Shown: in pieces, positions 901 to 8,480 of the stretch
Layout of the letters: every line of letters starts with the position of its first letter
How positions within the stretch are numbered: position 1 is the first letter of the stretch
NCBI RefSeq assembly: GCF_006345805.1
Contig: NW_021828178.1
Location: 1 to 9,002 of the forward strand
Length of the DNA stretch: 9,002 nucleotides
Direction: 5' to 3'
Origin: Octopus sinensis
Lineage: Eukaryota
Position numbers and translations under genes: made by a program
Notes under the pieces: model-generated
Database searches by the model: none
What the model saw: only the letters and a program-made list of their open reading frames with translations
What the model was told of the DNA's origin: nothing

Positions 901-1672
901 TCGGATCTTTTCACTTTGACTGGCAGATTTTTTAAATAATTTCTTTGTAACTAAACACTTTTAAACTTCGTATACTGGTAGAATGTGTTACATAAAACAT
1001 CCTTTTCTCTTGGCTTTCTTGAGAAAATTCTGTAGTTTGTAAGCTAGTTGTTGTTTAATTTCTTGCTTTTCGGCAATTTCAACCAATCAATGACGTCTAT
1101 TGAGGTGAATAGTTTACAAATGTTGGGTAATTTTAGCCAGTCGAAAGCCAGAGACATATAGGTGCCTGTTTCTATAGTAACAAGCCACGCGGTCATTTTT
1201 AGCTTATTAAATGGTAGTCCTGAAAGGTGCTAAAAATAACAGCTAAACAAGTCTTACAGCATGCGCCAAAACATTTTTCTTGTATTAGCATAATCGTATG
1301 AATTCTCGTATGTAGATTACAAATTCGCAAAAATTTCCCGAAAATTCCCCAAAATAAACAAGTAAAGCAGAATTCCGCCAATATTTAATTTGCTTACAGT
1401 TAACAACACGTGCAGTCCCGCACAAAATGACAACTTCCAAGTCCTGTTTTCTGATTGGGTAAAAATGACCAAACTTTAAACTTCTAAATTTTTGAAAAAA
1501 ATTTCCGAAAAAAGTTAAACATCCTACCGAGATTCAGCGTGGAAAATTACACCAATACACAAAATTTTTCAACTTTTAATAAACTTTAAAACAGCCAAAG
1601 AGAAAAAATCCAACGGGATCTTTGATAATATGCAGTGCCGTCCAGTTTGGTGGGGGGGGGTTGTAACTTTTA
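901..1672. mobile_element. Unclassified AT-rich interspersed repeat fragment(s), possibly DNA-transposon derived
   Basis: Sharp boundaries (cggatcttttcactttgactggcag at 902; ggggttgtaactttt running into (TA)n at ~1672). Short inverted motifs inside: accaatca ~1082 vs tgattgg ~1452, and ttttctcttggct ~1003 vs agccaaagagaaaa ~1593. No matched terminal inverted repeats or TSD found. Confidence 0.35.
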
Positions 1673-1823
1673 ATATATATATGCGCATATGTATATAGGT
1701 TTATGTATATATATATATATATATAATTATATATATATATAATATATATAATCATATTTATATATATTATATATATATATACATAAACCTATATACATAT
1801 GCGCATATATATATTAAAAGTTA
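1664..1823. repeat. Perfect 56-bp inverted repeat (fold-back) in an (AT)n tract
   Basis: 1664-1719 (taacttttaatatatatatgcgcatatgtatataggtttatgtatatatatatata) is the exact reverse complement of 1768-1823, with a 48-nt AT-rich spacer. Confidence 0.95.
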
Positions 1824-1946: not shown

Positions 1947-2088
1947 TATCTAATTCACTATTGCTTAACCATCTTCTGACATCGTCTCCGATGAAGAGAT
2001 ATAATAAATATCCTAGAAACAGCTGTAAGACCTATTATAAATGTTCTAAAATCTACACAGCCTTGGTTTTTTTTTAATCTCATTACGG

Positions 2089-2153: not shown

Positions 2154-2340
2154 GGTTAATAAAACACACAACAACAACGCGAGGACGTGGAACAAATATA
2201 TTATTATTGGACGCTCAGGAAAGAAGGAGGGTTTAACGTTTCGAGCGGAGCTCTTCGTCGGAAACATAGGAGAAGGAAAGGTCCAGAGAAGGGAAGACAG
2301 AAGAAAAAAAATCTCCAACGGTACACACGAGGTCACATTT
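2154..2340 (-). mobile_element. Short Penelope-like element in (TA)n, carrying a hammerhead motif
   Basis: Flanked by TA repeats. Shares blocks cgctcagga, acgtttcgagc and gctcttcg with the element at 8360-8480. Hammerhead at 2231-2265. Confidence 0.6.
2231..2265 (-). ncRNA. Minimal type I hammerhead ribozyme motif (U4C variant)
   Basis: Minus strand reads gttt-CCGACGA-a-gagc-tcc-gctc-GAAA-cg-TT-aaac. Helix I gttt/aaac, helix II gagc/gctc, palindromic helix III AACGTT. Predicted cut after GUU, between 2235 and 2234. Confidence 0.75.
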
Positions 2341-3832: not shown

Positions 3833-3880
3833 TACACATACACAAAAACCGTTAACTTCACTTCAACATTTATATTTAGT

Positions 3881-4260
3881 AAGGCAGCGACGGCGAGCTG
3901 GCAGAGTGGTTAGCACGTCTGCCGTTACGTTCTGAGTTCAAATTTCGCCGAGGTCGACTTTGCCTTTCATCCTTTCGGGGTCGATTAAATAAGTACCAGT
4001 TACGCACAGGGGTCGATACAATCGACTTAATCCGTTTGTCCGTCCTTGTTTATCCTCTCTGTGTTTAGCCCCTCGTGGGTAGTAAAGAAATAGGTATTTC
4101 GTCTGCCGCTACGTTCTGAGTTGAAATTTCGCCGAGGTCGACTTTGCCTTTCATCCTTTCGGGGTCGATAAATTAAGTACTAGTTGTGTACTGTGGTCGA
4201 TGTAATCCACTGTCTCCACCTCACCAAAAAATTTCAGTTCTTGTGCCTAAAGTAGAAAAG
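3881..4260 (+). mobile_element. Dimeric tRNA-derived SINE with diverged target-site duplication
   Basis: A-box-like tggcagagtggttagc (3899-3914) and B-box-like gagttcaaatt (3934-3944). A ~100-bp block from cgtctgccg to ggtcgat, including gcctttcatcctttcggggtcgat, occurs at 3916 and again at 4100 with different 3' tails. Flanks aacatttatatttagt (3865-3880) and aacatttaaatttgat (4261-4276) match 13/16. Confidence 0.85.
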
Positions 4261-4280
4261 AACATTTAAATTTGATTTGT

Positions 4281-4327
4281 ATCAAAATATCTTTTCGTCG
4301 CTTTCAAACCGCGACCTGTTCACCGAG
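4281..4327 (-). ncRNA. Minimal type I hammerhead motif, G3-C8 swapped core (left-arm copy)
   Basis: Minus strand reads tcg-GTGAACA-g-gtcgc-ggtttgaaa-gcgac-GAAA-agatat-TT-tga. Helix I is only 3 bp with one G-U pair. Confidence 0.55.
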
Positions 4328-4328
4328 A

Positions 4329-4373
4329 GTCAGTGAACAGGTCGCGGTTTCAAAGCGACGAAAATATTTTGAC
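4329..4373 (+). ncRNA. Minimal type I hammerhead motif, G3-C8 swapped core (right-arm copy)
   Basis: gtca-GTGAACA-g-gtcgc-ggtttcaaa-gcgac-GAAA-atat-TT-tgac. Helix I gtca/tgac, helix II gtcgc/gcgac, palindromic helix III AAAATATTTT. Predicted cut after 4369. Confidence 0.7.
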
Positions 4374-4460
4374 ACTAATTAAATTTAAACGTTGAAGTGA
4401 ATTTTAAAGTTTTTCTGGCTTTTAAATGGCTTATAATCACCTTCCCCACTGCAATGGTAG

Positions 4461-4539
4461 ATATACATATATATACATATATATATACATATATATATAC
4501 ATATATACATACATACATACATACATACATACATACATA

Positions 4540-4596
<57 letters not shown>

Positions 4597-4716
4597 GTAT
4601 ATACATATACACACACACACACACTCATACATACACACAGACACATTCACTCACACACACACGCGCGCGCGCGCGCACACACACACACACGCCCACACAC
4701 ACACACACACACACAC
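4461..4716. repeat. Compound (TA)n/(TACA)n/(CA)n/(CG)n microsatellite
   Basis: Directly visible; source of several spurious ORFs. Confidence 0.95.
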
Positions 4717-4995
4717 GTTGTGGAGAGCAATTTAAATGTCACCAGAGCTCGAAACCGTGATCCTGCGATCAATTTCGTTTCACAAATCAGTCCAACTGGT
4801 GGTCTGACAGCAACCATAATTAAACAAACTAGCGACAGACAAGTCACGTGATATTAATTAATCCATTCATTTTTGAAGTTGGCTGAAAGTTCTTATGTCC
4901 TTGTCTGACCTATATTCAGGGGTTGTTCACCCGGCAGGATACATCAAGACACAGAACGTCAGCAATATCTGGAGCTCTTTATGTGTATGTACACA

Positions 4996-5077
4996 CGAGG
5001 GGGTACTGAAAAGTTTCTGGCTTTAAGGGTGGCGCGAAAGGTCTGGTTCGAGGCCCAACCTTCCGAGTTCTTTTACA
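4996..5077 (+). mobile_element. Left end (TIR plus subterminal sequence) of a mariner-type non-autonomous element
   Basis: CGAGGGGGTACTGAAAAGTTTCTGGCTTT (4996-5024) has the mariner-like CGAGGG...AAAAGT terminus and matches the reverse complement of 7603-7631 at 22/29. Confidence 0.7.
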
Positions 5078-7463
5078 CCTCGAGCATGAGGGGGAGGTGT
5101 CAAACCCGTGTATCGACAACCTCTCTCGAACCGGCAAGGCCGATCGGTAGCACAACCAAGCCACGGATTTCTGGAAGTTATCCAGATACCTCGGCCCGAA
5201 TGTCCTTCCGAACAAGCTGGTAGCTGTTCCTCATCGAAGCTTAAAGCCTCCCCCAGGACGTCGTCGAACTCATGCTCTACCAACCCTCTATAAAAATCCG
5301 CAGTGTTAGCCCCGCTGCCGGTACTGCTCGCCCGGGAGAACAGAGTGAGTGCCTGTCTGCACTCCTTCAACCATTCTCCCATTGTAGGTCTCCGCTTGAT
5401 CCATACGCCTACGTCCCGTAGAGACGTTAACTGTGGAAAAAGGAACTTGGAATGCGGTGACCACACCTGTTCACCGTCCAGGTAGCACCAGAGATGTCTC
5501 AGCCTCAGCGCATTCTTGCGCATCATCAGCCAAGGCATCCCTAACTCGCCCTTTAACGGTTTCTGGTAGCAGATGAAGCATCTCACAAGTGGTGTCTTCC
5601 CCTTCCACAAAAAGCGGAATAGGATCCGTTCCAGTTTGGTCAGCTACACAAGGCACGACGTTTAAGCGGTAGGTTACCACAGATGCTACAAATACCTGTA
5701 CAACCTCGGCCCTTCCTAGCAAAGATAGCGTCCTCCGAGACCAGGTCTGGGTTATGGCCGTCACCTTGCTCGCAACCTCGCTCCAGTTTTTCTCCATATG
5801 GAAATCTGGTCCGAACCTGACTCCGAGCAATATAACCGGGCCCTCCGTCCAGCGTCCGGCGACGCTGTTGGGAAGCAGCGACTTGCCCCGCCAGGTGCCA
5901 AGTTGCAAGCCGACTGATTTATCCTGGTTAATTTTTGCCCCTGCAACCGATTCGTTTCCTTTGATGGCGTCTTCTACACGAGGTAGCTGCCCTTCATCAG
6001 ACACGATGATGGTGACATTATCCGAATACGTCGTCGCTCCTCTACCATAACATAGATCACTCGGGTCCCCCCCCCCCATAGTCCCCAATCTCCGCAGCAG
6101 TGGCTCAAGAGCCAATACATACAGGAGCGGGGACAGAGGGCAGCCCTGGGAAACTGAACGCTCGATCGCGAAAGGATTCGAGAAGAAACCGTTCACCTGG
6201 GCAACTGATTCGATGATGTTCCTATACATGGCATCGATCCAGCCACGGAAAGTCCAGCCCAGTTCGACCACCCGGAAGACCGCCTCCAGTCTATGGTGTA
6301 GCGAATGAGATGAATTTTATTGTGTATCGTCCTTTCTAGGATGTCATATGTCTGCGACTCTCCCACCAGGTCGCCCACAACAAGCCTCACTCCCTTGGCT
6401 AACACCTTGGCCAAAATCTTTAACTCTGTGTTTAGCAGAGTTATGGGCCGGAAATTATTAATGTTATCCCCATTGTGCGGGTCCTTCCTGATCTGTGTCA
6501 CTACTCCCCGGCTCACAGATCTGGGACTTCTCCCATTCTATTGCCAGTTCGCGTATACACCGGCCAGTATGCTCCCCAACAAGTCTGACATACTTTTATA
6601 AAAATCGTACGTTAGACCATCCAATCCCGGTGACTTATCCCCGGGGTACTCGGAAAGTACCTCTGTAACCTCTGCAGCTCAGCGTCACGTGCCGAGCGAC
6701 GCGGGCCACCGGCCAAGAAATCCCAAAGGGCATCCCTATGGTCCAGCGCCCCGCCCTTCTCGAACAACGCAGCGAAGTGCTCGTGAAAGGCCTTACACTT
6801 CTCTTCCTGTCCTTGTATCTCCTGTCCATGTTCATTTACCACAGACGTTATCGTGGCATCTATGCCAAGTTGGGTTTCTACCGAGCGAGCCCACCCGGCA
6901 ACCTTGATGCCCTCGCGACCCAGTGCACGTTCTTTTGCCCGAACCCTGCATCCTTCGTGTTTGGCATTGAAGTGTTGGTCCAAGGCCAATCTTGCCGCCA
7001 AAACTTGGGGCGCAGAGCCCATTCTCAGCGCCTCTTCTAACGCCTTAACTAGATTCCCTTCTACTCTAGGCTGTTCTAGACTTAATTGTTTGCTAAATCT
7101 AATAGACTAAAGTCGAATGGCTCTTCTGAGGGCACCCTACCACCAGTTATTTAACACAGTACCGGTTAGTGCCCTCATTACTAACTCCTTAGTAATGAGC
7201 CTAAACGAAGTTGTGATGGCGATCGCGAAGAAACAAGTCTGGACAGGAGACAGAGAACAATACGTCTTCCTTGTCTGACTAGGAGATATGACTTTCTCAT
7301 AACCATTCAAGAGAGTAGAGAAGGCCTGCAATTTGTCCAACATGGTCTCTGTAGCAACCATAATATCCATTCTATGTGATCTGAGGTCGTCGAGAAAACA
7401 AGCAAGCTTCCACTTCGAATTCAGGCCACGCACATTTAAACAACCTACACTAAGTGTAGCCAT
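5078..7463 (-). pseudogene. Degenerate ORF2 (APE endonuclease-reverse transcriptase) of a Tx1/L1-clade LINE
   Basis: Collinear motifs across frameshifted ORFs. Endonuclease start: GCLNVRGL..DIMVATET. RT: NFRPITLLNTELKILAKVLA, QVNGFFSNPF..QGCPLSPLLYVLALEP, YSDN in place of YADD (6017-6028), GAKINQDKS. Thumb and downstream: WSRRTLSLLGRA, WKGK, GELGMP, ending at CSRC (start of a Zn motif). Multiple stops and frameshifts. The D..KAFD.V motif is missing near 6289 and most of the endonuclease is missing near 7196-7274. Confidence 0.92.
7196..7274 (+). repeat. 79-bp foreign insert in the LINE, a direct-repeat copy of 8075-8153
   Basis: Ungapped manual alignment with 8075-8153 gives 71/79 identity. 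Confidence 0.92.
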
Positions 7464-7597
7464 GTCAATAAATAAATGAAAAAGGAAAGTTTGGCTTCTT
7501 ACTCTCCTACTACCGACTGACTTCTACAACGACTGACTGTCTGACTTTATAGTGGCTTTGACACGTGCGAAGCGGCGTACCGTTTCACTACAACATT

Positions 7598-7789: not shown

Positions 7790-8265
7790 GGGCACAGAAC
7801 GTCACAAAACGTAAACAACAAAAAATACGAAGTACGAGGACATGGGATATGAACTTTTTATGGGAGCAACAAAAGAAATAAACGGAAAAAAAGACAAACG
7901 ACCCTTCATCAGTTGTCGGCTGTTTTTCTAATCCGTATTTTAAGCATTTCACGACAAGATACGCCTTCGATAAAACAGTTGCTCCCGCAAAGCACATTAA
8001 ATAAAATTTGGGTTTTTGTGGAGGGTCAAAATTGGTGACAAAACAGGACAGTGAAAACAAACAGAAAGGGCTGCTGAGCCTAAACGAGGTTGTGATGGCG
8101 AACGCGAAGAAACAAGCTTAGACAGGAGACAGACAAGAATAGGTCTTCCTTGTTCAGCTGCAACAAGAAGAAAGAAAGAAACACAAGTTAGGAGTAGAAA
8201 GAAAATGGTCGATGGTCACGTGGGAGCCACGTTACAAAAAGGAGAAGAGTGAAGGAGAGAGAGTG
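7790..8265 (-). mobile_element. Interspersed repeat lying in (TA)n, possibly Penelope-related
   Basis: TA-repeat flanks on both sides and a T-rich minus-strand 3' end like the other TA-embedded elements. Part of it is duplicated at 7196-7274. Contains ctgatgaaggg on the minus strand but no complete hammerhead. Confidence 0.45.
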
Positions 8266-8359: not shown

Positions 8360-8477
8360 AAGGGAAATTTTACGAAAATAAACAAAAGACGAAGGCAGCT
8401 GGAGTACAAACAAACAAATGTATTAGATAGCGCTCAGGAATAGAAAAAGTCTTTTACGTTTCGAGCCTACGCTCTTC

Positions 8478-8480
<3 letters not shown>
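8360..8480 (-). mobile_element. Short Penelope-like element in (TA)n with a 5'-truncated hammerhead motif (8449-8480)
   Basis: Minus strand reads (at)n-GTCGA-a-gagc-gtag-gctc-GAAA-cg-TA-aaagac. It has the same helix II and ACGT palindrome as 2231-2265, but the helix I 5' strand and core start are replaced by (AT)n. Confidence 0.6.

What the first reader, a model, noticed from the sequence alone, without database searches (positions are those of the whole stretch)
4281..4376. Hammerhead with a natural compensatory swap of the C3-G8 pair (GUGAACA core)
Seen: gtca-GUGAACA-g-[gtcgc/gcgac]-GAAA-atat-UU-tgac places every helix where a type I hammerhead needs it, but positions 3 and 8 are G and C instead of C and G. 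The same core is in both arms, so it predates the duplication. Established: C3-G8 is a tertiary Watson-Crick pair in the active fold, and the double swap partly rescues activity while single changes are strongly deleterious. Inference: a repeat family carries a covaried, likely functional ribozyme that CUGAnGA-based searches would miss. The UUU cleavage triplet is also atypical. I cannot confirm whether this family has been described.
Basis: partly seen in the sequence, partly recalled or inferred. Interest (0 to 1): 0.8.

Follow-up and report, generated by a model that had tools for sequence, protein, structure and literature searches.

The report
Retroelement hammerhead with flipped core pair
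A jumping-gene family with thousands of copies in this genome carries a hammerhead-shaped RNA motif whose core base pair is flipped (G-C where its sister family has the usual C-G), which suggests that the self-cutting fold is being preserved, though cutting is untested and this particular copy is likely inert.

Summary
Window 4329-4373 is a minimal type I hammerhead with G3/C8 in place of C3/G8; a relaxed descriptor gives 0.005 hits per shuffled window. It is the end of the pseudo-LTR of a young Penelope-like retroelement (RT + GIY-YIG). The genome holds 6,441 pattern matches, and 93 of the first 100 are G3-C8, none C3-G8. The sister family (SH-aLRT 100) has a colinear hammerhead with C3-G8, and 4 of the 5 pairs that differ change on both sides and still pair. 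So the swap is natural and compensated. Cleavage is untested. Genomic copies mostly span the uncut site (38 of 49), and the sister family has fixed an odd A9C core, so activity may be weak or protein-assisted. This locus is a head-to-head insertion that folds into a long hairpin instead. Natural U3-A8 is published; I found no natural G3-C8 in eight searches, but one key paper was not available. The scan noted a different G3-C8 motif near a Penelope RT in another genome. Verdict: new variant of a known kind.

The parts
4329..4373 (+). Minimal type I hammerhead motif with G3-C8 core; predicted cut between 4369 and 4370
   Evidence: sequence; descriptor scan; alignment with sister family
4329..4332 (+). 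Helix I, 5' strand (pairs with 4370-4373); the family's further 3-4 bp of helix I are lost in this copy
4333..4340 (+). Core G3-U4-G5-A6-A7-C8-A9 plus the extra base between 9 and 10.1
   Evidence: 93 of the first 100 genomic matches are G3-C8
4341..4359 (+). Helix II (5 bp, G10.1-C11.1) with a 9-nt loop that varies in sequence and length among subfamilies
4360..4369 (+). GAAA, self-complementary helix III (AATATT, 4363-4368) and U17
   Evidence: pair 15.2-16.2 is A-U here and G-C in the sister family
4329..4458 (+). Right arm: 5'-truncated end of the pseudo-LTR of a Penelope-like element, stopping at the first of the family's two 3' ends
4261..4323 (-). Left arm: inverted, shorter, decayed copy of the same pseudo-LTR end (core kept, helix I broken)
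4459..4716 (.). AT/AC microsatellite directly behind the element's 3' end (typical insertion context of the family)

Best explanation
This is a hammerhead motif at the end of the pseudo-LTR of a young Penelope-like retroelement family, in which the core 3-8 pair reads G-C while the sister family reads C-G; it likely still folds into the active hammerhead shape and would cut weakly, as a dimer or with help from the element's own protein, whereas this head-to-head copy is predicted to be inert. SHOWN: place in the element, family-wide G3-C8, homology to a C3-G8 motif, compensated pairs in all three helices and in the 3-8 contact. INFERRED: the 3-8 pair forms only in the active fold, so its compensation points to selection on that fold; RNA likely starts about 20 nt before helix I; reverse transcription likely starts at two sites about 90 and 145 nt behind the cut site, mostly on uncut RNA, giving thousands of short copies; two cDNAs joined at one break would give the palindrome seen here.
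For: Element: upstream of the motif lies an ORF with DKSG, YVDD, CX3CxxC and GIY-YIG (Pfam PF01541 at cutoff); stop-free frame of 1,042 aa in L150; copies 95-97% identical among the best 23 of 41 rows; L148/L149 show ORF flanked by the same pLTR end and an inverted pLTR. Family state: 6,441 matches, first 100 listed: 93 G3-C8, 0 C3-G8, 0 U3-A8; 27 of 30 copies picked on an upstream 27-mer are G3-C8 (24 parsed, 3 read by eye); no variant at 5% or more in the core in 4 runs under four organism labels. Sister family: 58% protein identity, sister in the tree, SH-aLRT 100, pLTR ends colinear, 97 of the first 100 of 2,867 matches C3-G8. Pairs changed on both sides: 3-8, one in helix I, one in helix II, 15.2-16.2; 95.8% of cells pair against 19-45% for slid controls; chance of 4 of 5 about 2e-5 to 2e-3 in a simple model. 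A helix I variant keeps a U-G pair. Loop II has 8 or 9 nt by subfamily, so coding does not explain the conservation. In two non-inverted copies helices I and II form with probability 0.91-1.0. The engineered C3G/G8C double mutant partly restores cleavage in a Penelope-like element's hammerhead, which cuts only with the protein (PMC11167929).
Against: No cleavage data. 38 of 49 tail-anchored copies start 11 nt or more upstream of the cut site and only 3 start within 6 nt of it; no pile-up of foreign ends at the cut site among the loose ends shown, so most templates were uncut. The sister family has C at position 9 in 96 of 100 listed copies, which hints at relaxed catalysis in this clade. The four compensated pairs stem from one split, not from many events; the 'pairs changed' measure did not beat its shuffle control (264 of 500). 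One helix I pair is broken in the sister family, and its helices are not the dominant predicted fold (0.0-0.19). The palindrome around helix III is 10 nt (AAAATATTTT), so a dimer could over-pair and trap A13/A14. All runs held were contigs, so RNA ends could not be seen.
Confidence: 0.68

Rival explanations
1. The hammerhead fold is kept as a shape (a binding or folding signal for the element's protein, or a 5' UTR structure), and no longer cuts to any useful extent.
For: Most copies come from uncut RNA. The sister family has fixed A9C. In the anole element, catalytic mutants do not affect insertion in vitro and no RNA-seq reads end at the cut site (PMC11167929). Naiad elements thrive without canonical hammerheads (PMC8557442).
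Against: G5, A6, A9, G12, A13, A14, A15.1-U16.1 and H17 are all intact in this family, and the compensated 3-8 pair belongs to the active conformation (PMC3884650).
Confidence: 0.23
2. The ribozyme died in this lineage, and G3 and C8 are two neutral changes that happen to be complementary, spread by the master copies.
For: Within-family uniformity only reflects recent amplification. The comparison rests on one split.
Against: Three other pairs are compensated too, while the proteins have drifted to 58% identity; subfamily changes fall in loop II or keep wobble pairs.
Confidence: 0.07
3. The feature is a palindromic MITE or a microRNA-like hairpin, and the hammerhead look is accidental.
For: The locus folds into a -73 kcal/mol hairpin; weak plant microRNA-model hits far below threshold.
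Against: 20 of 49 loci have no inverted partner and the inversion points differ among the rest; the sequence continues into an RT-GIY-YIG ORF.
Confidence: 0.02

Closest known systems
Minimal type I hammerheads in pLTRs of metazoan Penelope-like elements (Cervera and De la Pena 2014, PMC4209133)
   Same: Place in the pLTR; short helix I; extra base between 9 and 10.1; G10.1-C11.1; palindromic helix III with a 2-nt insert, as in the Drosophila forms; opposite-strand pairs; mostly solitary truncated copies.
   Different: G3-C8. Of their 56 representatives 53 are C3-G8, 2 U3-A8, 1 U3-G8, none G3 (supplement Fig. S3).
Natural U3-A8 hammerheads (Perreault 2011, PMC3088659; Schistosoma Cercyon elements, PMC4209133)
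   Same: Natural double change that keeps the 3-8 pair.
   Different: U3-A8 needs two transitions with a U-G wobble as intermediate; G3-C8 needs two transversions, and both single intermediates (G-G, C-C) abolish cleavage in the anole element.
PAc (Poseidon, Anolis) hammerhead and its engineered C3G/G8C mutant (Frangieh 2024, PMC11167929)
   Same: Hammerhead near the pLTR-ORF junction, two 3' ends ('tail'), AT-rich targets, uncut RNA as main template.
   Different: There the swap is engineered and the ORF starts inside helix II; here it is the natural state, the motif is non-coding (about 128 nt before an ATG, read by eye in L126), the two ends are about 55 nt apart, and the protein has the Neptune/Nematis-type linker.
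Non-LTR retrozymes (bioRxiv 10.64898/2026.07.22.740005)
   Same: Type I hammerhead, link to Penelope-like pLTRs.
   Different: Retrozymes are head-to-tail tandem repeats without ORF; these copies are dispersed, single or inverted, and belong to a coding element.

Membership tests
Minimal type I hammerhead (PLE type) | Helices I and II around the core in type I order, G10.1-C11.1, extra base after 9 | tested here: met
Minimal type I hammerhead (PLE type) | Literal CUGAnGA consensus (C3, G8) | tested here: not met
   GUGAACA; 0 of the first 100 matches are C3-G8
Minimal type I hammerhead (PLE type) | Watson-Crick pair between 3 and 8; U4, G5, A6, A9, GAAA, U16.1, H17 present | tested here: met
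   G-C here, C-G in the sister family; no core variant at 5% or more
Minimal type I hammerhead (PLE type) | Short palindromic helix III that allows a dimer | tested here: met
   AATATT at 4363-4368; the monomer helix III has predicted probability 0
Minimal type I hammerhead (PLE type) | Second same-strand copy in one transcript at this locus | tested here: not met
   The partner is on the opposite strand; hammerhead helices have probability 0.00 in the two-arm RNA
Minimal type I hammerhead (PLE type) | Site-specific self-cleavage after H17 | not testable with these tools
   Only contigs were held; 5' ends of genomic copies show no excess at the site
Rfam hammerhead families | Match to a covariance model | tested here: inconclusive
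   No hit for the window, L019, L173 or the canonical-core L228
EN+ Penelope-like element | One ORF with PLE-type RT and C-terminal GIY-YIG | tested here: met
   1,042-aa frame with DKSG and YVDD; PF01541 22.6 and 24.4 bits, cutoff 22.6; no Pfam RT hit, RT rests on motifs and on relatives named as RT-domain proteins
EN+ Penelope-like element | pLTR, inverted 5'-truncated partner, optional tail, AT-rich targets | tested here: met
   features as listed in PMC8557442
Neptune/Nematis clades | CX2-5CxxC linker before the endonuclease | tested here: met
   CQSNCAVC; definition
Neptune/Nematis clades | Placement among named clade references in an RT tree | not tested
   The tree held no named reference elements
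Non-LTR retrozyme | Head-to-tail tandem units, no ORF | tested here: not met
   No tandem array at the locus; linked ORF; the one same-strand pair checked is a 3.3-kb segmental duplication

The most novel reading that the evidence does not exclude
This is the first natural, family-wide, catalytically active G3-C8 hammerhead, reached through an inactive intermediate. With the A9C sister family it marks a retroelement clade whose ribozyme cores are tuned down and depend on the element's protein, and it implies a class of genomic hammerheads that all CUGAnGA/UUGAnAA searches have missed, perhaps including elements reported to lack one.
Probability: 0.4. Interest if true: 0.7.

Novelty: new variant of a known kind. 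Interest (0 to 1): 0.52.

Why it matters
The 3-8 pair was deduced from a crystal structure and rescue mutants; nature was known to use U-A as the alternative. A G-C form fixed in a recently active family is evolutionary support for the active fold, and it needs a route through states that abolish cleavage. It also bears on an open question: whether hammerheads of Penelope-like elements cut for a purpose, serve as protein-bound shapes or are passengers. Two sister families with different core defects give a direct test. In practice, descriptors should allow any Watson-Crick 3-8 pair; at least 6,400 motifs in one genome are otherwise invisible.

Tried and rejected
Rfam: no hammerhead hit, uninformative because a canonical-core relative is missed too. 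A same-strand pair 3.3 kb apart (L057/L058) looked like pLTR-ORF-pLTR but is a segmental duplication without ORF. Looking for cleavage in reads failed: all 24 runs listed are contigs; the 'RNA?' runs are guesses and were not used as proof of transcription. The loose ends at L019:1544 come from a 2-nt subfamily indel, not from truncation at the cut site. A search with an outgroup protein returned hits at 39-47% identity, many of them loci already assigned to the two families, and gave no third family to compare. A third motif with canonical core was found in only 2 old copies, with no ORF linked. A spliced first exon before the 5' pile-up was rejected: the 15 copies that stop there share no upstream sequence. 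A short reading frame through the motif was rejected: loop II lengths differ by one base among subfamilies. Rows dropped: L078 (duplicate flank of L077); the value 0 for L233 is a mis-parse of the inverted arm. The careful tree did not finish; the quick tree (36 of 89 proteins, SH-aLRT only) is used. Papers not held: Lunse 2017, Przybilski and Hammann 2007, Nelson and Uhlenbeck 2008. A sequence look-up in earlier findings gave nothing.

Full report
OBSERVATION. A descriptor for minimal hammerheads with a free 3-8 pair finds only this hit in the window and 1 hit in 200 shuffles. The motif opens the right arm of an inverted repeat, 4261-4323 against 4333-4394. The left arm keeps the core but has lost helix I.

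THE FAMILY. A DNA search of the own genome gave 1,556 candidates, 40 scored. A 19-mer with N at positions 3, 7 and 8 has 6,441 exact matches, 0 for the reversed control; of the first 100 listed (all on contig C1, not a random draw) 93 are G3-C8, 2 G3-U8, 2 G3-G8, 2 C3-C8, 1 U3-C8, none C3-G8 or U3-A8. Of 30 copies picked on an upstream 27-mer, independent of the core, 27 are G3-C8. Contigs of 4 runs under four organism labels show no variant at 5% or more in the core; listed variants fall in loop II, at CpG sites, and at one helix I position where U-A becomes U-G. Loop II differs in sequence and length among subfamilies.

IT IS A PENELOPE-LIKE ELEMENT. Walking upstream from the motif leads through about 1.1 kb of microsatellite-rich 3' UTR to an ORF ending in a GIY-YIG domain (PF01541). 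L150 holds a stop-free frame of 1,042 aa with DKSG, YVDD and a CX3CxxC linker, the mark of Neptune/Nematis elements (PMC8557442, passages). L148/L149 show the ORF flanked by the same pLTR end and by an inverted pLTR. Copies end at two fixed places about 55 nt apart, often in TA or ATT repeats: the 'tail' signature explained for the anole element by internal start of reverse transcription (PMC11167929, parts 1-2 of 4 read). 29 of 49 tail-anchored loci have an inverted partner (50 of 63 matches examined, one duplicate dropped). The window's palindrome is one such insertion. The closest database protein carries an octopus name and matches own-genome copies at up to 99%, so the genome is apparently an octopus.

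THE SISTER FAMILY IS THE KEY TEST. That protein (P0001, 58% identity) is sister to this family in a quick tree of 36 proteins, SH-aLRT 100. Its pLTR end aligns colinearly with ours from the motif to the tail and holds a hammerhead at the same place with C3-G8 (97 of the first 100 of 2,867 matches). On an alignment made without structure, 4 of 12 pairs change on both sides and still pair: 3-8 (G-C/C-G), helix I (U-A/C-G), helix II (G-C/A-U) and 15.2-16.2 (A-U/G-C). One helix I pair breaks in the relatives. 95.8% of cells pair, against 19-45% when partners are slid; the count of changed pairs alone did not beat its shuffle (264 of 500). These changes come from one split; a simple model puts 4 of 5 at 2e-5 to 2e-3. 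A scarce third motif with the same helix II has the fully canonical core (2 copies), which with the general rule makes G3-C8 the derived state (inference).

HOW IT LIKELY WORKS. Shown: anatomy, place, homology, compensation. From the literature: 3-8 is a Watson-Crick pair of the active fold (PMC3884650, passages); single changes abolish and the double change partly restores cleavage (PMC11167929; PMC8495972, passage); minimal PLE hammerheads cut poorly, as dimers (PMC4209133, parts 1-2 of 4; PMC6765202, passages), or only with the protein. Inferred: RNA starts about 60 nt before the cut site, since 30 of 49 loci have an arm reaching -50 to -61 and none carries the upstream 17-mer; 8 of 15 copies stopping there have an extra G where the element has C (binomial p 0.002-0.017), as a copied cap would give. 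In two non-inverted copies helices I and II are the predicted fold (0.91-1.0); in the window's two-arm RNA they are absent (0.00) and with the right arm alone weak (0.02-0.2). So the family motif likely folds, and this copy likely does not.

RESULTS AGAINST ACTIVITY. 38 of 49 forward arms begin 11 nt or more upstream of the cut site and 3 begin within 6 nt of it: inserted cDNAs came mostly from uncut RNA. The sister family has C9 in 96 of 100 listed copies, and its helices are not the dominant predicted fold. The helix III palindrome extends to 10 nt and could over-pair. No raw reads were available.

NOVELTY. Natural U3-A8 is published (PMC3088659, passages; PMC4209133). None of the 56 representative PLE hammerheads has G3 (supplement file 2, parts 1-2 of 3; file 1 could not be searched). 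Eight literature searches returned G3-C8 only as an engineered mutant. Also seen without a natural G3-C8: PMC6155905 (passages), PMC10085705 (passages and section 14), bioRxiv 10.64898/2026.07.22.740005 (part 1 of 5). Lunse et al. 2017 on PLE hammerhead variants was not held and could contain a prior report.

VERDICT. A real, compensated core variant in a known setting: new variant of a known kind. About 0.93 that it is a true hammerhead homologue, about 0.68 that it retains weak or assisted cleavage. Interest 0.52.

Noticed in passing
L153-L197 (sister family; e.g. L173:100-144 +): The sister Penelope-like family has fixed C in place of the near-invariant A9 (96 of the first 100 of 2,867 matches), with C3-G8 intact and a non-palindromic helix III. 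A second family-wide core anomaly in the same clade.
   Followed up: partly
L126:7818 and 15 short copies: 5' ends of short copies pile up at one A about 60 nt before the cut site, 8 of 15 with an extra G; likely a capped start site inside the pLTR, though the context also looks like a splice acceptor.
   Followed up: partly
window 1987-2032 (+): Decayed minimal hammerhead of another family (U4 changed to C, palindromic CAGCTG helix III); a copy with intact CUGAUGA lies in L156. Read by eye.
   Followed up: no
window 2238-2268 (-), 7915-7935 (-), 8452-8480 (-): Further decayed or truncated hammerhead-like pieces with C3-G8 type cores from other repeat families; an intact relative of the first lies in L093. 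Read by eye.
   Followed up: no
window 3880-4260 (+): Two SINE-like units, 112 nt at 88% identity, 184 nt apart (D11); the left arm of the finding abuts their 3' end. The same repeat interrupts copy L010.
   Followed up: no
window about 4960-7470 (-): Broken non-LTR retrotransposon-like stretch (RT and endonuclease-like motifs seen by eye); no tblastn match to the Penelope-like protein.
   Followed up: no
window 1664-1823: Perfect 56-nt inverted repeat in AT-rich DNA (I12), possibly another inverted insertion.
   Followed up: no
L178:804-848 (+), L228 about 1490-1545 (+): Third, scarce hammerhead with the sister family's helix II and a fully canonical core; no ORF linked.
   Followed up: partly
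L061:2200-6300: 3.3-kb tandem segmental duplication carrying two copies of the motif.
   Followed up: yes
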